Of a stretch of DNA of 64,000 bases, positions 2,665 to 53,454 are shown piece after piece. The DNA is from a virus, in IMG/VR virus record IMGVR_UViG_3300028610_002494, positions 1 to 64,000 of that record; one strand, given 5' to 3'. Below the pieces are notes generated by a model. The model had not been told where the DNA came from. It searched no databases and saw only the letters and a list, made by a program, of their open reading frames with translations. The stretch's first letter is position 1, and every line of letters starts with the position of its first letter. The position numbers were made by a program, and so were the translations under genes.

Positions 2665-3455
2665 TGCCAAAAGGAATATATAAAAGAACAGAAAAAAATA
2701 AAGGACAAATCCCTTGGAATAAAGGATTAACTAAGGAAACTGATGAAAGAGTTAAAAAATATGGTGAAAAAGTTTCAAAAGGAAGATTAAAAAGAAAACA
2801 AAAGTTAGGGTATCTAAATTCACCAGAAGCAAGAAGAAGACAAGGAAAAGCAATAAGTGGTATAAATAATCCAAATTATGGTAAATTTGGAGAAAAAAAT
2901 CATAATTATGGTAAACATCATTCAGAAGAAACTAAAGAGAAAATGTCGGAATCAAGAAAAGGTATATATGTTGGAGAAAAAGCACCAATGTATGGTAAAA
3001 AATTTTCAGAAGAACATAAAAGAAAAATAGGTGAAGCTCAGTTAGGAAAGTTAAATCATAATTGGAATCCAAATCGTTTAGAAGTCTATGCACCTTATGG
3101 TGAAAACTTTTATAATAATGTTTTGAGAGATGAAAAATGGAAACTACAAAAAGGAAGGGATATGCTTACTGGAACTAAATTAAATATTAATAAACGAATA
3201 GATTATCATCATATTAATTATGATAAATCTAATGATGATCCTAACAACCATTGTTTTTTAAGTAGTAATAATCATATGAGAATTACAGGATATCAATCAA
3301 ATCCTATAAAATCAGAAAGATATAAAAAAATATTACAAGAAAATACATTGGCTTTAAAAAATGGAGAAATACCGAAAAATTGGAGTCAAATTAATAAAGA
3401 ATTATTTAGACAAGAGAAATTAAAACAATTAGATTTAAGTTCATATATAATATAA
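2664..3455 (+). CDS. NUMOD3-repeat HNH-type homing endonuclease
   Basis: PWNKGLTKETDERV, HSEETKEKMS and FSEEHKRKI NUMOD3-like repeats; HHINYDKSN...NH HNH core; likely start MPKG at 2664; C-terminal QLDLSSYI PIP-like peptide. Confidence 0.82.
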   Translation: MPKGIYKRTEKNKGQIPWNKGLTKETDERVKKYGEKVSKGRLKRKQKLGYLNSPEARRRQGKAISGINNPNYGKFGEKNHNYGKHHSEETKEKMSESRKGIYVGEKAPMYGKKFSEEHKRKIGEAQLGKLNHNWNPNRLEVYAPYGENFYNNVLRDEKWKLQKGRDMLTGTKLNINKRIDYHHINYDKSNDDPNNHCFLSSNNHMRITGYQSNPIKSERYKKILQENTLALKNGEIPKNWSQINKELFRQEKLKQLDLSSYII

Positions 3456-18444: not shown

Positions 18445-18582
18445 TATGGATATGGAAAATATCTTGATTAGAAGATCTGGAATCCTTTTGAGTCCATTCC
18501 TCAAAAGGACAGGTCTGTTTCCTGAAGTCATCCATAATAAATCATTGAAACACCACAGGGAGAATTCCACTCCCTGTGGACA
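18445..18582 (+). ncRNA. Putative structured RNA motif A, copy 1
   Basis: GC-rich intergenic island with stems TCCTTTTGAG/CTCAAAAGGA and CCACAGGGAG/CTCCCTGTGG; second copy at 30018-30174. Confidence 0.65.
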
Positions 18583-18908
18583 ATTAAATAAAATAAGGTG
18601 AATAAATTGGCAAGAAAAAAGAAAAAAGGATCTACAATAAATATAGAGAATTTTAGTCTTATCTCTGGGAAAAAAAGGTTTAAGATAACAAATATACAGA
18701 GAGCAACACGCAATACATCTATGTATAGAGCAGGAATGCCTAAAGGAGAAAAGTATGTATATAGTTTTATGAGTAAAAATGTTAAAACTGGTGAATTAAA
18801 ACGACTCTATATTTATGCTGATTCTAAATCAAAATTAGTGAAAAAATTTGGAAAAGAGTATAAAAAATATTAAAAATAATATTTTTTTTTAAAAAAAGGT
18901 AAACAAAA

Positions 18909-19178: not shown

Positions 19179-19775
19179 AGATTTTTAAAAAATAAAAAAT
19201 AAAAACAAATTGAGTTGATATCAATAATGAAGAATAAACCTTTTATAGTATCTAAATTGCCTGATGGAAGAACAAGAAGATTTTATGAACATCCAAAAAA
19301 TTTTAAAACAAAGAAAAATGTTAAGAAGAAAATAGCTGGTCTTAAGAAATTACATAAACCTTGGAATAAAAAGCTTTATTATAGGACAATAAAGAAAAAA
19401 GACAGAACAAATAAAACAATATACAAGATTTATATTTATTCAACAGAACCAAATTTTATGGAAGGATTTAGAGGAAAATAATAACTAATTATATAAAAAA
19501 GGTGAAATTATGACTAAAGGATTCAAAACAGGTAAGAAAATGAATAAATTATATCATAAACCAATTAAGAGAGCTTGGTCAAGAACAAAAGCACATTTCT
19601 TAGATGCACATCCAGATATATTATCAGATTTTAATAGAGAAAAGAAAAGTAAATGGCAAAATAGAATTAATATTGCAAGAAAAGAAAGTGGATTAAAACC
19701 TTATGATAATAAAGACTGGAAAAAGTTCTATAAGGATGGTTAAAAATTAATTTAATAAAAAATAAAATTTAAAAG

Positions 19776-20018
19776 GTGATAAAAATAGGAGATTTAACAA
19801 GTGATGTTATTATGGCAATTTCTGATAATCCTAAAACAGCAGATGTGAATTATATTGCTTGGCATTCTTATAGAACAAAGAAGGTCATAAGGAATAAACT
19901 TAATAAACTTAATAAAAAAGGGATTATCAATAAATCTAAACATCCAAAAGATAAAAGAAAGAATGTGTATAAATTATCAAAAAATTGGAGAGCTAAACTA
20001 AAGAAAATTAAAATATAA
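19776..20018 (+). CDS. Winged-helix-like basic protein
   Basis: LNKLNKKGII.KSKHPKDKRKNVYKL, a MarR-like wing; probable ATA start at ~19785. Confidence 0.6.
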   Translation: MIKIGDLTSDVIMAISDNPKTADVNYIAWHSYRTKKVIRNKLNKLNKKGIINKSKHPKDKRKNVYKLSKNWRAKLKKIKI

Positions 20019-23825: not shown

Positions 23826-24784
23826 AATGATAAAAATGAAAGGAAAAAAGAAGTTAAATTATATTAATGTAAAAAGGTGATTGAAATACCACGTAGTTAT
23901 GGTTATGGAAGAACAAGAAGCAAGAAAGTTGGAAAATATGAAATACAAATAGAATTTCATGATTTCAAAAAAGCACGTTTTAGTATTTATAAGGGAAATA
24001 AAGATGTTTATTATAGTGGTTCTGACAGTTTAACAGATAAAAAAGAAAAGGTATTGGACAGATATCGTTCTTTAAAGAATGTTAAAAGTATTGAATCTTT
24101 TGTTAAAAAAAGAAAGTCTATAAAATAAAAAAATATGTGCAATAAATTATCTTATTGTAATCCCAGATTTGATAAGTGTTTAATCCCAATTATTAATCAT
24201 ATAAATAATAATTCTGATTTAAAGACTTTAGCCAGTTGTTGTGGTCATAGAAAGTATAATACTACAATAGTAGTGAAAGATAAATTAGGAAATATTTTTG
24301 AACTTTATTCAAGAATATCTTTACTTCCTAAAAAAAGAAACAGGTATATAAAAAAGATAATGTTGGATTTTATTATATACCTGAAATTGTTTAATATTTT
24401 TTTGTATTTTTAAATTATTTTTCTAAATATAATATTACCATTTCATTTAACCTAAAACTTATTTTTTTAATAGTTCCAACTAAATTTATCAAAATAATAT
24501 TACCATTTAACATAAATCGTAATATTTTTTATTCTTCAGGTAAATATTTTGTTGAATTTTAATAGTAGAGATGAAATGGAAATAATATCAATTTAAAGTG
24601 TGTTTTAAAGAATTTTTTTTATTGAGTAATATAAAAATACTAACTAAATAAGTTTTTGCTGTTAAAAGATTGATTTATAGGTTTAAAAGTTAATATTTAG
24701 TTAAAATATTTACCTAAGACTAAATTATAAATATGTAAAAAATAACTGTTAATTAATAAAAAATAACTTATTTTTTTAAAAAAT

Positions 24785-26062: not shown

Positions 26063-26114
26063 TTTTATTGTGTTGCAAGTGTGTTTAGATTTCCTGAGCA
26101 CCAACAGAATAAAA
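26063..26114 (+). ncRNA. Bulged hairpin motif B, copy 1
   Basis: TTTTATTGTGTTG-caagt-GTGTTTAG-atttc-CTGAGCAC-CAACAGAATAAAA; second copy at 44511. Confidence 0.55.
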
Positions 26115-29947: not shown

Positions 29948-30017
29948 AAGAGGTAAAAAATAATGGGCATATTAACTTTCTTAGTAGTTGTTATTTATGT
30001 ATTTGTTGGAGATAAGT

Positions 30018-30174
30018 TGGAAAGGTGCTGTGGTGATGAAGATTTTCATATTGAATGAAAATACTGGAATCCTTCTTGAGACAGTCGGAGACACTCAGAA
30101 GGACAGGTTTGATCCACCTGCACCCATTTCCATAGAATCACAGTTCACAGGGAGAATTCCACTCCCTGTGGACA
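30018..30174 (+). ncRNA. Putative structured RNA motif A, copy 2 (5' of FEN1)
   Basis: 29-nt identity with copy 1 (30146-30174) and a compensatory change in the first stem. Confidence 0.65.
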
Positions 30175-30187
30175 CAATTAAAAAAAG

Positions 30188-31174
30188 GTGTTTATTATAG
30201 GAACAAAAATAAAACAAATGGTTGACCAAGTTAAAAGATCTGTTACAATAGAAAATTTATTTAATAAAACAATTGCAATAGATGCATTTAATTCAATATA
30301 TCAATTTCTTTCTATAATAAAAGGAAAAGATGGAAAACCTTTAAAAGATTATAGAGGAAGAATAACATCACATCTTAGTGGTTTATTATATAGGAATTTG
30401 ATATTTTTAGAAAAAAGTATTAAACCTATTTATTGTTTTGATGGAATAAATAAATCTCAAAAGGTAAGATGGTCTAAACCTACAAAAAGTAAGGTTAGGA
30501 TTAATGAATATATAATTTCAGAAAGTAAATCACTTTTAGATGCTTTAGGAATTCCTTGGATTCAAGCACCAGCAGAAGGAGAAGCACAATGTTGTTATCT
30601 TGTCCAGCAAGGAGATGCTTGGGCTGTTGCTTCTCAAGATTATGATTGTTTTGCTTTTGGTGGAACAAGATTAATTAGAAATTTTGCAGTTCATAGAAAA
30701 AGGAAAAAAGGAAACACTCAAACAGAGTATGATATTGAGTTTATATCACTTGAGAAATTATTGAATTATTGGAAAATCACAAGAGAACAACTTGTTGATA
30801 TTTCTATATTAGTAGGAAATGATTTCTTTGAAGGATTTAAGGGATTTGGTGAAAAGAAAGCTTTAAAATATATAAAAGAATTTAAACATGTATTTGGAAA
30901 TGATGATATAATACTTTTAAGAAGAGATGGTGGTGAATCACTTGGAGAAGAAATGTATAATACATATATGGATAATAGAAAAATATTCTTAAATCCAGTA
31001 GTAAATAAAGATTATAAAATAAAGTTTAAAAAACCTAATTATATAGAATTACATGAATTACTCGTTAGAGAACATAATTTTTCAGACAGAAGAATTGATT
31101 CTGTAATATCAAGATTAAAAAAGCTTAATGAAAACAGTAAAAAACAAATAAATTTAGCTAAATTTTTAAAATAA
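30188..31174 (+). CDS. fen: Flap endonuclease 1
   Basis: IAIDAFNSIYQFLS, TSHLSGL, FDG, EGEAQC, SQDYD, GND; C-terminal PIP box QINLAKF. Probable start is ATA at 30197 (MGTKI). Confidence 0.93.
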   Translation: MFIIGTKIKQMVDQVKRSVTIENLFNKTIAIDAFNSIYQFLSIIKGKDGKPLKDYRGRITSHLSGLLYRNLIFLEKSIKPIYCFDGINKSQKVRWSKPTKSKVRINEYIISESKSLLDALGIPWIQAPAEGEAQCCYLVQQGDAWAVASQDYDCFAFGGTRLIRNFAVHRKRKKGNTQTEYDIEFISLEKLLNYWKITREQLVDISILVGNDFFEGFKGFGEKKALKYIKEFKHVFGNDDIILLRRDGGESLGEEMYNTYMDNRKIFLNPVVNKDYKIKFKKPNYIELHELLVREHNFSDRRIDSVISRLKKLNENSKKQINLAKFLK

Positions 31175-36865: not shown

Positions 36866-38068
36866 ATGAAAATTCCAGATAAATGTAAAGAATGTATGCA
36901 TAGGATTAATGATTTCTGTAAAGGTTATGGATTTAAACTTGAAGTCCTTAGTGTAGAAAACTGTAAAAGAAGAAAAACTGAAAAACAAACTAAAAAAAAA
37001 ATTGTTAAACATGCACGTGCTCGTTATCGTAATAGTAAAATAGGATTTGCTGGAAATAATAGTAATTATATGGGATGATAATCATGGCAGAAGAATTCGC
37101 AGATATTTTAGATGATATCAAAAGAAAACCAATGGAAGAAAGAATACAGGCTTTAGGAAGTATAGTTGAAAAATTAATTCAAACAATATTAAATGTCTCA
37201 AATAATACAGAAATAATGTTAAACTCTTTTAGAAATGAAATTGATATTTTAAAACAACAAATTAAAGTAATGAGAGTATCACAAACTAATATTGATATAA
37301 AACAATTAAAACTTAAACCACCAGAACCATTACAACCATCACAATTTACACCTAAACCAACTCCACCAATACCAACACGAAGTATGCTTGTTGGTGAATT
37401 AAATGAATTATTTAAAGCTAATAAGAAAAAAGAGAATAAATAAAATGATAACAACTAAGAATAATATTCCAGTAGCAACTGATTTTGTAAGAATAGTTCA
37501 CGGAGGAAGAGGAGATTTTGTGGAATTCACAAAAAAACAAATGATATTAATGAATATTAGTATTCCATACATTACGAAATGGAGATTATCCAAAAGATGG
37601 AAAGATAAAATTTATTATATTGAATATAGAACTAAAGATAATATTATGGTTTATTATCAAAAAAGATTAGTTAAATATGCTGATTATAAACTAAATCATT
37701 TTTATATAGCTTTAGAAGATTTAAAAATAACATAAGGAGAAAAATAAAAAATGAATGAAAAAAGAAAAATAAAATTTAGAAAATTTAGTGATGAATATAA
37801 TATTAAAACATCTAAAGACTTTGAAAAACGAGAATATATACATAAAATAACAGAAAGATATTTTATTCCCACTTTTATAATATGTTTGTTATTATTATGT
37901 ATAGGATTGGTACTTTTATTAGATTGGTTAGTGGTTGTTGTATTAATATTATCTTCAATATCTATTATAATTTTAGCAATTAGTCTTATATATTCTATTA
38001 TAAATATGAATAAAAGTAAGAAAAAATGGAAAGAATATACGAAAAAAATAGAAAGCTTAAAGGTGTAA
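36866..38068 (+). CDS. Four hypothetical genes (Cys-rich 36866; coiled-coil/Pro-rich 37075; ~37445-37735; two-TM 37751)
   Basis: Packed ORFs. Confidence 0.45.
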
Positions 38069-44510: not shown

Positions 44511-44552
44511 TTTTATTGTAAGTGTGTTTAGGTTTCCTGAGCACCAATAAAA
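44511..44552 (+). ncRNA. Bulged hairpin motif B, copy 2
   Basis: TTTTATTG-taagt-GTGTTTAG-gtttc-CTGAGCAC-CAATAAAA. Confidence 0.55.
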
Positions 44553-51655: not shown

Positions 51656-52854
51656 AAATATTAGTAATAGCAGGATATCTTGAAGCAAATATCAAGAATG
51701 AAACACACAAAACTCAAAGTATTAAAGGTGGAGCATCTAAAAGTATTACAAACATAGTTAATAGCTTAAGAGATATAAAAGGTATCCAAATAAAAGTTTT
51801 AACACAAAAATTTAGAAACAAACTCTTAAAATCACTTGATCTTGATGCTTATATATTAATTCCAAGAATAATAAAAAATATTTCGAAATTTAAACCTAAC
51901 ATTATTATAACACAAGACAGAATTGCTTTTCCAACAATTCTCATTTCCAAAATAATGAAAATTCCTGTTATTTATATAATCAGATCTCCCACAGAGTTTT
52001 GTCCAAAATATGTAGATGTTGTTAACTATGGAAAAGCATGTTCAGGAATAAATAACAGGAGACAATGTTTTAAATGTATTAATAAATGGAAAACCTTGCG
52101 GATTTTAATTGATAATAGACCAAAAGGTTCAGAATATTCCATTAAAGCTTCTTTATTAAATGTTTTTTTTAAAATACGATATTTTATATGTTTATTCAAT
52201 TTGTATTTAACTAAAAAAGCTAATATGATTCTGGTTGCTTCTACATTAATGAAAGAATTTTTTTCCAATAAGATAAACCAAGATAAAATTAAAATAATTA
52301 ATATAACTCCAATCCACAAATATATAAATAATGTAAATAGAAAAAAGAAACAATTGATATTTATCAGAACCCATTATAATGCTGCACATAAAGGTTTAAA
52401 TTTCATTTTAAAATTATCAAAAATTATACCTGAAAAATATCGTATTTTAATAGTTGGCAGTTCTGAGGACAAACAACAAGAAAATAATCCAAAAATATTA
52501 AATGTTGGATATATTTCTTCTAAAATATTACTTAACAAAATGTTTGCAGAATCCAAGATCACTTTAGTTCCATCTTTCTTTACTGAAGCTTTTGGAAGGA
52601 TTATTCCTGAAAGTTTGTCAAATAAAACTCCAGTTATCTCTTCTCCACAATGTGGTGCAAACCAATTTTTTAAGGAAAAAGATTTTTTAAGGGTTGTTCC
52701 TTTAAAATTAAACTTATGGATAAAAACAATTGAAGATATTATCCAAAATCCTCCAATTATTACTGATAATGATATTTCTCAAATTTATGAGCAATTCTCA
52801 TTAGAAAAGAGTAAAAAAGATTTAATGAATATAATAAAAAATATTAAAAGGTGA
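51652..52854 (+). CDS. GT4-like glycosyltransferase with Cys-rich insert
   Basis: GGA N-terminal loop, KGL, PSFFTEAFGRIIPES...PVI. Confidence 0.85.
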   Translation: MKILVIAGYLEANIKNETHKTQSIKGGASKSITNIVNSLRDIKGIQIKVLTQKFRNKLLKSLDLDAYILIPRIIKNISKFKPNIIITQDRIAFPTILISKIMKIPVIYIIRSPTEFCPKYVDVVNYGKACSGINNRRQCFKCINKWKTLRILIDNRPKGSEYSIKASLLNVFFKIRYFICLFNLYLTKKANMILVASTLMKEFFSNKINQDKIKIINITPIHKYINNVNRKKKQLIFIRTHYNAAHKGLNFILKLSKIIPEKYRILIVGSSEDKQQENNPKILNVGYISSKILLNKMFAESKITLVPSFFTEAFGRIIPESLSNKTPVISSPQCGANQFFKEKDFLRVVPLKLNLWIKTIEDIIQNPPIITDNDISQIYEQFSLEKSKKDLMNIIKNIKR

Positions 52855-53454
52855 TTAAAATAAAAGAATGGAAAGAATGGAATTCATTTATACAATGGAT
52901 ATGTATTATTGGTTTTTTTTTAATAATTATAATGGTATTTATTGAAGTTTTTTATTTTATTATAAATATTCCAGATGAACTTATTCTTGGGATTCGTGAA
53001 AATAGTATAGGGAAACATTATCTCAATAATCCAGAATTAGTAGCTGAGATGGAAGCTTTAGCATCATCATCTGAGTTTTTACATTATACAATAGTATTTT
53101 TATTATATACATTGATATGTATAGTATTATTTTTTTCATATAATGAGGTTAGAGAAAATGAAAAAATATTTAAAAAAAGGAAAAAACATAGAAAAAAATA
53201 AATTGAAACACATTTTTAAATCTATTTTATTCTATACTAAACTTGTGTTTTATGTTTCAATAGGAATTTTAAGTTTAGGAATGATATTTGTATTGTTTAT
53301 GGGTTCGGATTTAGAAGAAGAAATATTTGAAGATGAATATGAATTAATGAGGAGAAGAGAACAATTAGAAGATGATTTAATATCAGAAAAGACAAAAAAA
53401 TACAATAAATTAACTTTAATAAAAAAAGAGGAAAATAATGAAAGAGAAATATAA
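52851..53454 (+). CDS. Two membrane proteins (52851-53201, 53143-53454)
   Basis: TM helices. Confidence 0.45.

What the first reader, a model, noticed from the sequence alone, without database searches (positions are those of the whole stretch)
18445..18582. Unrecognised ~140-155-nt structured RNA in two copies, with covariation and a possible pseudoknot
Copies at 18445-18582 and 30018-30174 share one architecture. An outer stem differs in sequence but still pairs (ATGGAT..GGAAA/TTTCC..ATCCAT versus TGGAAA.GGTGC.GTGG/CCAC.GCACC.TTTCCA). A variable hairpin follows (ATCTT/AAGAT versus ATTTTCAT/ATGAAAAT). Then an invariant CTGGAAT forms CTG/CAG with a GAA bulge under a stem showing a compensatory change (TCCTTTTGAG/CTCAAAAGGA versus TCCTTC(T)TGAG/CTCAGAAGGA). 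An identical 29-nt 3' hairpin has loop AATTCCA, whose ATTCCA is complementary to the conserved TGGAAT. I cannot match this to tRNA, hammerhead, SECIS or common riboswitches. Both copies end just upstream of an RBS (one is FEN1). Candidate new ribozyme, switch or sRNA.
Basis: seen in the sequence. Interest (0 to 1): 0.85.

Follow-up and report, generated by a model that had tools for sequence, protein, structure and literature searches.

The report
Orphan structured RNA leader, two copies
An uncultivated 112-kb virus linked to Asgard archaea carries two diverged copies of a roughly 140-170-base, strongly folding, non-coding element just in front of two genes (one is the FEN1 flap endonuclease); it matches no catalogued RNA family and no relative could be retrieved, so it is probably a new virus-specific regulatory RNA, but its function is untested.

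Summary
Two same-strand copies (18446-18582 and 30018-30174) share CTGGAATCCTT, AGGACAGGT and an identical 29-nt hairpin that occurs exactly twice. Both fold far better than shuffles (z about -5). They are G+C- and C-rich islands in a 25% G+C genome, and their 3' hairpins are the most stable simple hairpins in 112 kb. Pairing survives sequence change: six double changes on a model-fitted two-row alignment, against 0-1 in slid controls.

ORFs span both copies, but they read the shared bases in different frames. They lack the genome's codon periodicity and have no homologues, so the element is non-coding.

Nothing in Rfam, ARAGORN, IMG/VR, JGI metagenomes, GenBank phages or the Asgard genomes searched is related. 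Covariation therefore rests on two paralogues only. Ribozyme, switch and pseudoknot remain untested.

Best reading (about 0.45): a virus-specific, cis-acting intercistronic or leader RNA whose invariant hairpin and GAA bulge are recognition sites. Main rivals are a free small RNA and a DNA site, because the hairpin is a 10-7-10 dyad like a tyrosine-recombinase core and the virus encodes such an enzyme. The scan has not noted this element on other DNA.

The parts
18446..18535 (+). Copy A three-way-junction domain. P1 is 18446-51/18530-35 plus 18454-58/18518-22. P2 hairpin is 18461-76. P3 is 18477-18512.
18477..18512 (+). Copy A P3: CTG/CAG base, invariant GAA bulge (18480-82), 10-bp stem and 7-nt loop.
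   Evidence: One U-A to C-G double change relative to copy B.
18553..18582 (+). Copy A P4: 10-bp hairpin with loop AATTCCA (18563-69) followed by ACA. The 29 nt from 18554 to 18582 are identical in copy B.
   Evidence: two exact matches, 0 expected; -18.0 kcal/mol.
18595..18609 (+). AAGGTG Shine-Dalgarno sequence and TTG start (18607) of the 88-aa basic protein downstream of copy A.
30018..30132 (+). Copy B three-way-junction domain. The extended P1 is 30018-33 paired with 30114-32. P2 is 30042-62. P3 is 30064-30106.
   Evidence: Minimum free energy -61.1 kcal/mol (z -5.23). Shuffle test of the flanks: 5/500.
30064..30106 (+). Copy B P3: CTG/CAG base, GAA bulge (30067-69), 10-bp stem with one extra bulged T, and a 13-nt loop.
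30143..30174 (+). Copy B P4: 12-bp hairpin including one U-G pair, with the same loop AATTCCA (30155-61). The identical 29-mer is 30146-30174.
   Evidence: -19.7 kcal/mol.
30185..30199 (+). AAGGTG Shine-Dalgarno sequence and the probable ATA start (30197) of FEN1.
   Evidence: Relatives begin MGTKIK, which aligns with ATA GGA ACA.
29963..30058 (+). 31-aa hydrophobic small ORF with the genome's canonical leader (GAGGT, 8 nt, ATG). It overlaps the P1 5' strand and P2 of copy B.
   Evidence: read from the sequence; gene-like G+C by codon position: 0.48/0.23/0.23.

Best explanation
The two loci are paralogous copies of an orphan, virus-specific structured RNA domain. It is transcribed on the + strand as part of the viral mRNAs. 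It lies in an intercistronic or 5'-leader position, immediately upstream of the ribosome-binding sites of an 88-aa basic protein and of FEN1.

Anatomy: a long irregular closing helix P1; a small variable hairpin P2; a long hairpin P3 carrying an invariant GAA bulge next to the junction; a 10-17-nt linker; and an invariant 10-12-bp hairpin P4. The P4 loop (AAUUCCA) can pair with the UGGAAU that spans the bulge.

Proposed action (inferred, not shown): the invariant parts are recognised in cis. Those parts are P4 including its loop, the GAA bulge, and the J3/1 segment GU(C/U)UG. The recognising factor would be a viral or host factor, and/or the parts dock on each other. This would set the fate of the downstream cistron: its translation initiation, mRNA processing or stability, or read-through. 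The closest working analogy is the paired nutL/nutR or putL/putR elements and the intercistronic processing hairpins of bacteriophages.

Shown: the sequence features, the folding excess, the compositional anomaly, pairing kept through change, and the non-coding character.
Inferred: transcription, cis action, the binding partner and the pseudoknot.
For: Existence and structure:
- Exact duplicate of the 29-mer.
- The covariance model finds only these two sites in 112 kb.
- Folding z about -5, stronger on the + strand.
- On the model-fitted alignment, 93.6% of cells are paired with 6 double changes (P1 4, P2 1, P3 1), against 40-51% and 0-1 when partners are slid.
- Copy B's P1 is extended by insertions on both strands that pair with each other.

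Composition:
- G+C is 0.39-0.44 against 0.25, and C is 0.25-0.28 against 0.095, in a genome with strong G>C skew.

Non-coding character:
- The shared bases are read in different frames.
- G+C by codon position is flat, with GC3 about 0.4 against 0.167 +/- 0.073 for ORFs.
- The copy B ORF has no homologue among 5.8 billion proteins.

Leader position:
- P4 ends 15-16 nt before AAGGTG in both copies, and ACAATTAAA is conserved in between.
- No run of six or more T follows P4 before the downstream genes. The next one after copy A is the T9 at 18882, just after the downstream gene.
- All genes lie on the + strand.
Against: - There are only two sequences, both from one genome. The alignment used for the pair counts was fitted to the structure.
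- P1/P2 of copy A alone is not significant (50/500).
- No transcript data could be obtained.
- No relatives were found, so conservation beyond this virus is unknown.
- P4 never varies, so it says nothing for or against RNA pairing. It has the 10-7-10 dyad form of a DNA recombinase or operator site.
- ORFs of 51 and 67 codons span the copies more often than shuffles predict (36/2000 and 13/2000).
- SD sequestration by an alternative fold is plausible in copy B but not in copy A (inspection).
Confidence: 0.45

Rival explanations
1. A free-standing small non-coding RNA in two paralogous genes. Each would be made from its own promoter or cut out of the mRNA, and would act in trans, for example through the invariant P4 loop or by titrating a protein.
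For: - Compact, G+C-rich islands typical of RNA genes in A+T-rich genomes.
- An A+T-rich 66-nt spacer with TATA-like runs lies about 30-45 nt before copy A's P1 (inspection).
- The very stable 3' hairpin could protect a processed end.
Against: - No oligo-T terminator follows P4 in either copy.
- The distance to the downstream SD is fixed.
- Copy B's 5' half overlaps a small ORF that has a canonical leader.
- TATA-like strings are uninformative at 25% G+C.
Confidence: 0.15
2. P4 acts as double-stranded DNA. It would be a core site (10-bp inverted arms around a 7-bp asymmetric spacer) for the virus's tyrosine recombinase, or an operator for a dimeric DNA-binding protein. The upstream part would serve as accessory sequence. 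Two direct copies 11,592 bp apart would allow excision of the segment between them.
For: - The perfect 10-7-10 dyad is identical in both copies while the rest of the element has diverged.
- A Phage_integrase-family ORF lies at genome 67462-68001.
- From general knowledge, loxP, FRT, dif and att cores have this arm-spacer-arm form, and cer/psi sites carry about 150-180 bp of accessory DNA on one side.
Against: - It does not explain the compensatory changes in P3 and P2, the mutually pairing insertions in P1, or the + strand energy bias and U-G pairs.
- The recombinase gene is 37-49 kb away.
- There is no GC-skew inflection or origin-like A+T-rich unwinding region.
- TGGAA motifs are only modestly enriched; about 1-4.5% of windows are as rich.
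Confidence: 0.12
3. A new self-cleaving ribozyme or a ligand-sensing riboswitch that uses the three-way junction and the P4-loop/bulge pseudoknot.
For: - The architecture is a multi-helix junction with invariant junction nucleotides, a possible long-range loop-bulge pairing and possible alternative CAGG/CCUG pairing.
- It matches no known class.
Against: - No similarity to any ribozyme or riboswitch model, even at E up to 10.
- The hammerhead core is absent from copy A.
- The downstream genes (FEN1 and a tiny basic protein) are not typical riboswitch targets.
- The SD is not sequestered in a conserved way.
- The pseudoknot has no covariation support.
Confidence: 0.08
4. The elements are translated. 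Either they encode small proteins, or they are upstream ORFs whose termination at the downstream start couples translation to weak non-AUG starts (TTG and ATA).
For: - ORFs of 51 and 67 codons span the copies, longer than in shuffles (36/2000 and 13/2000).
- Their stops overlap the downstream SD (TGA at 18599-18601) and the ATA start of FEN1 (TAG at 30198-30200).
- A gene caller called the copy B ORF.
Against: - The frames differ across the shared nucleotides, so the peptides are unrelated after GILL.
- There is no codon periodicity.
- No homologues were found for the copy B ORF; the copy A ORF was not searched.
- AAGGTG-N6-ATA starts also occur at genes without the element.
Confidence: 0.07
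5. A neutral remnant of a segmental duplication of a leader cassette. Its hairpins would have no present function.
For:
- No relatives are available to show purifying selection.
Against: - Conservation is very uneven: 29/29 identical next to unalignable flanks.
- Pairing is retained through indels and substitutions.
- The compositional departure is extreme in a genome under strong A+T and G>C pressure.
Confidence: 0.08

Closest known systems
Bacteriophage lambda nutL/nutR (boxB hairpin) and HK022 putL/putR
   Same: Two copies per viral genome, on the transcribed strand, in the leaders or intercistronic regions of two different operons. They are similar in fold, and part of the hairpin is sequence-invariant as expected of a recognition site. 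They act in cis on the transcript (from general knowledge).
   Different: - Different size and architecture: a 140-170-nt three-way junction plus hairpin, against 15-70 nt.
- No sequence similarity.
- The host is archaeal, with a different RNA polymerase and oligo-T termination.
- No antitermination factor was identified.
- Function is not tested here.
Intercistronic processing or protective hairpins of phage and bacterial operons (T7 RNase III sites, REP-type 3' stabilisers)
   Same: Stable hairpins placed between a stop codon and the next ribosome-binding site in polycistronic viral messages. This genome has at least one other such hairpin family.
   Different: Most archaea lack RNase III (from general knowledge). 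The element is much larger and branched, and no cleavage is known.
Riboswitch expression platforms that use a long-range loop pairing (e.g. the cobalamin L5-L13 kissing loop)
   Same: A 3' hairpin close to the ribosome-binding site whose loop is complementary to a conserved unpaired segment of an upstream multi-helix domain.
   Different: No Rfam match, no candidate ligand, the SD lies outside the hairpin, and the pairing is unsupported by covariation.
Tyrosine-recombinase core sites (loxP, FRT, dif, lambda att core)
   Same: P4 read as DNA is two perfect 10-bp inverted arms around a 7-bp asymmetric spacer. It is present twice in direct orientation, and a tyrosine recombinase is encoded in the genome.
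   Different: The rest of the element shows RNA-type constraints. No recombination product was observed or could be tested. The recombinase gene is distant.
Two-state structured leader before homing-endonuclease genes in Methanobacterium-virus relatives (earlier scan note e1-5772843)
   Same: An archaeal-virus leader RNA in diverged copies with compensatory changes.
   Different: That leader alternates between hiding and exposing the SD. Here SD sequestration is plausible only in copy B, and no sequence relation exists (one search found no look-alike elsewhere).

Membership tests
Any Rfam 15 family (4227 models) | Score at or above the family's gathering threshold | tested here: not met
   no match in the whole 64-kb window; at E up to 10, only sub-threshold noise (best 29.4 bits against a 53-bit cut-off, on the P4 hairpin alone).
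tRNA / tmRNA / tRNA-like | Cloverleaf with T-loop and anticodon loop, detectable by ARAGORN | tested here: not met
   none at default settings, with or without introns. At an 80% threshold, only inconsistent hits on different strands. The P4 loop AAUUCCA is not a UUCRANY T-loop (inspection).
Hammerhead ribozyme | CUGANGA and GAA cores at a three-way junction in both copies | tested here: not met
   Copy B has GUGAUGA but copy A has nothing equivalent. The junction strand lengths (2/0/5 nt) do not fit. No Rfam hit.
Box C/D or H/ACA guide RNA; K-turn | C (RUGAUGA) and D (CUGA) boxes forming a K-turn, or a hairpin with a pseudouridylation pocket followed by ACA | tested here: not met
   The C-box-like GUGAUGA occurs only in copy B, and neither copy has a D box. 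P4 is followed by ACA but is a continuous 10-12-bp stem with no pocket. The GAA bulge is not followed by the tandem G-A pairs of a K-turn (inspection). Rfam C/D hits are at 10-18 bits against cut-offs of 38-75.
Archaeal SECIS element | GAA/A internal loop below a short G+C-rich upper helix (criterion recalled from general knowledge, not checked against a paper), in the 3' UTR of a gene with in-frame UGA | tested here: not met
   The GAA bulge is present, but there is no opposing A, and the long helix lies above the bulge, not below it. No SECIS model hit at E up to 10. The upstream genes need no in-frame UGA read-through.
Bulge-helix-bulge splicing-endonuclease site | Two 3-nt bulges on opposite strands separated by a 4-bp helix | tested here: not met
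   There is only one 3-nt bulge. The helix above it is 10 bp with no second bulge on the 3' strand.
CRISPR repeat / solitary repeat unit of the host | The same sequence present as arrayed repeats in host genomes | tested here: not met
   in 400 Asgard genomes, only scattered single sites with 2-3 mismatches (15 sites against 5 for the reversed control) and no arrays. Rfam CRISPR-DR35 scored 18.8 bits against 35.
Host (Asgard) RNA family or host FEN1 leader captured by the virus | Covariance-model match in host genomes or upstream of host FEN1 | tested here: not met
   no credible match in 2 complete genomes or in a 151-genome sample of the phylum, searched with each of the two models. The one hit (E 0.036) lacks the whole core; nothing within 1.5 kb upstream of 80 host FEN1 genes.
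Tyrosine-recombinase core site | Inverted binding arms around a 6-8-bp spacer, plus a cognate recombinase and recombination products | tested here: inconclusive
   The arm-spacer-arm geometry is met (10-7-10). A recombinase gene is present at genome 67462-68001.
Protein-coding gene | Conserved reading frame, codon periodicity, homologues | tested here: not met
   Frames differ across the shared bases. GC3 is 0.39-0.42 against 0.167 +/- 0.073. The copy B ORF has no homologue but itself; the copy A ORF was not searched.

The most novel reading that the evidence does not exclude
The element is the founding member of a new class of catalytic or ligand- or protein-sensing RNA in Asgard-archaeal viruses. 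The invariant P4 loop would dock on the GAA bulge to form a pseudoknotted core, which switches or cleaves the message of replication genes such as FEN1.
Probability: 0.1. Interest if true: 0.8.

Novelty: new variant of a known kind. Interest (0 to 1): 0.42.

Why it matters
I know of no described structured regulatory RNA in an archaeal virus, and a literature search for one in Asgard-linked viruses found none. A validated cis-acting RNA in front of a replication gene would give a first handle on how such viruses control gene expression in hosts that combine bacterial-type Shine-Dalgarno initiation with eukaryote-like machinery. At present it is an orphan: two copies in one genome, no relatives and no transcript data. 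Its value is therefore as a well-defined, cheaply testable candidate (about 140 nt, with clear mutational predictions) rather than an established discovery.

Tried and rejected
Searches for relatives, all empty or chance only:
- Exact P4 core in IMG/VR: three unrelated sites.
- Two- and three-part motif patterns in IMG/VR. The 144 loci fetched were screened with the covariance models and gave no hit. One recurrent hit is a coding region of marine phages.
- The three-part pattern in JGI metagenomes: two G+C-rich coding hits by chance.
- GenBank phage collection, by DNA and by FEN1 protein: no match.
- FEN1 as a single protein and as a nine-sequence profile against IMG/VR: no relative.
- The same profile against GTDB genomes: only host FEN1 at 44-49% identity.
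- Covariance models R1 and R2 against Asgard genomes and host FEN1 upstream regions: nothing credible.

Tools not available:
The contigs that carry the closest viral-type FEN1 relatives (P0002 at 87%, P0003 at 62%, and others) could therefore not be read.

Ideas examined and dropped:
- tRNA-like, hammerhead, K-turn or C/D, H/ACA, SECIS, bulge-helix-bulge, CRISPR repeat (see the membership tests).
- Diversity-generating-retroelement template/variable repeat pair: the copies differ by indels and unalignable 5' parts, not by adenine-specific substitutions (inspection).
- MITE: no terminal inverted repeats (inspection).
- Integron attC-like site: the outer stems are not conserved between the copies (inspection).
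- ORB-like replication origin: TGGAA is only modestly enriched and there is no skew inflection.
- A conserved SD-sequestering two-state switch: plausible in copy B only (inspection).
- A special link between the element and non-AUG starts: the same AAGGTG-N6-ATA context occurs at genes without the element.
- Neighbouring proteins as recognisable RNA binders: no Pfam, PHROG or Atlas match. A genome-wide Pfam tally showed no recognisable RNA-processing enzyme among the 25 families listed.

Full report
**Context.** The window is the first 64 kb of a 111,837-bp IMG/VR virus record with direct terminal repeats. Nearly all ORFs of 150 aa or more lie on the + strand. G+C is 25.3% and G>C skew is strong and uniform.

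The FEN1 gene carries XPG_N and XPG_I domains. Its nearest cellular relatives, at 44-49% identity, are FEN1s of Promethearchaeota (Asgard archaea). A handful of uncultivated, probably viral, homologues reach 50-87%. This agrees with an earlier scan note that the element is Asgard-linked.

**Observation.** Both copies exist as described.
- Copy A spans 18446-18582 and copy B spans 30018-30174. Both are on the + strand, and the hairpin copies start 11,592 nt apart.
- They share CTGGAATCCTT, AGGACAGGT, AATCA and a 29-nt segment that is identical in both. That segment is found exactly twice in the window, against none in 100 shuffles.
- A covariance model built from copy A alone recovers copy B at 51.6 bits (E about 1e-9) and nothing else in the whole genome. 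A two-copy model behaves the same way.

**Is it structured?**
- Each copy folds about five standard deviations better than dinucleotide shuffles on the + strand (-47.8 and -61.1 kcal/mol; z -4.97 and -5.23). The - strand folds less well (z -3.4 and -3.9).
- The architecture is a long interrupted closing helix (P1), a short hairpin (P2), a long hairpin (P3) with a CUG/CAG base and a 3-nt GAA bulge, a linker, and a 10-12-bp hairpin (P4) with loop AAUUCCA.
- On the model-fitted two-row alignment, 93.6% of cells pair and six pairs change on both sides (four in P1, one in P2, one in P3). When the 3' partners are slid by 1-3 columns, only 40-51% pair and 0-1 double changes remain. This alignment leans towards the structure and has only two rows.
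- As a more independent test, I shuffled only the non-conserved flanks. That gives 50/500 for copy A and 5/500 for copy B. In copy B, P1 is lengthened by insertions on both strands that pair with each other (GGUGC/GCACC and GUGG/CCAC).
- P3 carries one clean U-A to C-G exchange, and its loops are unrelated (7 nt against 13 nt).
- P4 never varies inside the 29-mer, so it is silent on pairing. In copy B the stem continues for a U-G pair and two further pairs.

**Composition.** Copy B is the most G+C-rich 140-nt window in the genome (0.443). Copy A lies above the 99th percentile. The genome has 9.5% C, whereas the cores have 25-28% C and rank joint first and third of all 110-nt windows. The two other top windows I read lie in coding sequence: an ORF over 37075-37440 and thyX. 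The P4 hairpins are the two most stable simple hairpins in 112 kb. Balanced G and C in a genome under strong A+T and purine pressure is what base-paired RNA requires.

**Coding or not?** ORFs of 51 and 67 codons span the copies, which is more than shuffles predict (36/2000 and 13/2000). A gene caller called the second one. Three results argue against coding:
- The shared nucleotides are read in different frames, so the peptides diverge after a short GILL.
- G+C by codon position is flat at 0.35/0.35/0.39 and 0.42/0.36/0.42. Real genes here show about 0.37/0.30/0.12, and GC3 over all ORFs is 0.167 +/- 0.073.
- The copy B ORF has no homologue among 5.8 billion proteins. The copy A ORF was not searched.

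Translated, non-conserved upstream ORFs that terminate at the downstream start remain a minor possibility. A separate 31-aa hydrophobic ORF (29963-30058) has the genome's canonical leader and gene-like periodicity. It overlaps P1-5' and P2 of copy B, so in copy B the strictly non-coding part is about 30059-30184.

**What it is not.**
- Rfam gives nothing at gathering thresholds across the window, and only noise at E up to 10.
- ARAGORN finds no tRNA, tmRNA or intron-bearing tRNA.
- By inspection, the defining features of hammerhead, K-turn or C/D, H/ACA, archaeal SECIS and bulge-helix-bulge motifs are not met.
- The hairpin is not a host CRISPR repeat.
- The element is not found in the Asgard genomes searched or upstream of 80 host FEN1 genes.

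**Relatives.** None could be retrieved from IMG/VR, JGI metagenomes, GenBank phages or GTDB genomes. Covariation therefore rests on two paralogues only.

**Position and likely mechanism.**
- In both copies P4 ends 15-16 nt before an AAGGTG Shine-Dalgarno sequence, and ACAATTAAA is conserved in between.
- No run of six or more T, the archaeal terminator signal, follows P4 before the downstream genes. After copy A the next one is the T9 at 18882, just past the downstream gene.
- This fits an intercistronic or leader element better than a free sRNA.
- Conservation is very uneven. P4, its loop, the GAA bulge and J3/1 are invariant, while P1, P2 and the loops are free to change as long as they pair. 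That pattern is what a scaffold presenting specific recognition sites would show.
- I therefore favour a cis-acting RNA recognised by a protein, or docking on itself through the AAUUCCA/UGGAAU complementarity, that sets translation, processing or stability, or read-through of the downstream cistron. The closest working analogy is lambda nutL/nutR or HK022 putL/putR. Copy A sits in an array of tiny, very basic proteins, which are conceivable partners. All of this is inference.

**Main rival for P4.** As DNA, P4 is a perfect 10-7-10 dyad, the form of a tyrosine-recombinase core, and the genome encodes such an enzyme at 67462-68001. Two direct copies would permit excision of the 11.6 kb between them. 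This does not explain the RNA-type constraints in P1-P3, but it cannot be excluded without reads.

**Verdict.** The element is real, non-coding, structure-constrained and uncatalogued. A ribozyme or switch reading is unsupported but not excluded. Interest is moderate until relatives or transcripts are examined.

Noticed in passing
window 30185-30199 (also 19773-19787, 23874-23888, 52848-52862): FEN1 appears to start at ATA (30197), 6 nt after the AAGGTG Shine-Dalgarno sequence. Viral-type relatives begin MGTKIK, which aligns with ATA GGA ACA AAA ATA AAA. Gene callers instead start this protein and its 87% relative at an internal Met (318 and 321 aa). The same AAGGTG-N6-ATA context precedes at least three other ORFs, where an in-frame GTG inside the SD is the alternative start. 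This suggests AUA initiation in this virus.
   Followed up: partly
window 29963-30058: An unannotated 31-aa hydrophobic ORF (MGILTFLVVV...) with the genome's canonical leader (GAGGT, 8 nt, ATG) and gene-like codon-position G+C. It lies between the 214-aa membrane protein and FEN1, and it overlaps the 5' half of copy B.
   Followed up: partly
window 26081-26101 and 44524-44544; genome 74493-74513 and 88253-88273: A second family of intergenic hairpins, GUGUUUAG(A/G)UUUCCUGAGCAC, with two G-U pairs (so RNA-type and + strand). The two copies I read follow a T-tract and precede the next SD. Earlier scan notes mention them too.
   Followed up: partly
genome 67462-68001 (beyond the window): A short (about 217-aa) tyrosine-recombinase (Phage_integrase) ORF. 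No att or dif site has been assigned. The P4 dyad is a formal candidate.
   Followed up: partly
window 2808-3062: Four tandem NUMOD3 motifs (the DNA-binding repeats of homing endonucleases) within one open frame of 332 aa. An HNH_3 match also exists somewhere in the genome.
   Followed up: no
whole window: GC skew (+0.15 to +0.32) and AT skew are positive throughout on the coding strand, with no inflection in 64 kb. No skew-defined origin is visible in the window.
   Followed up: no
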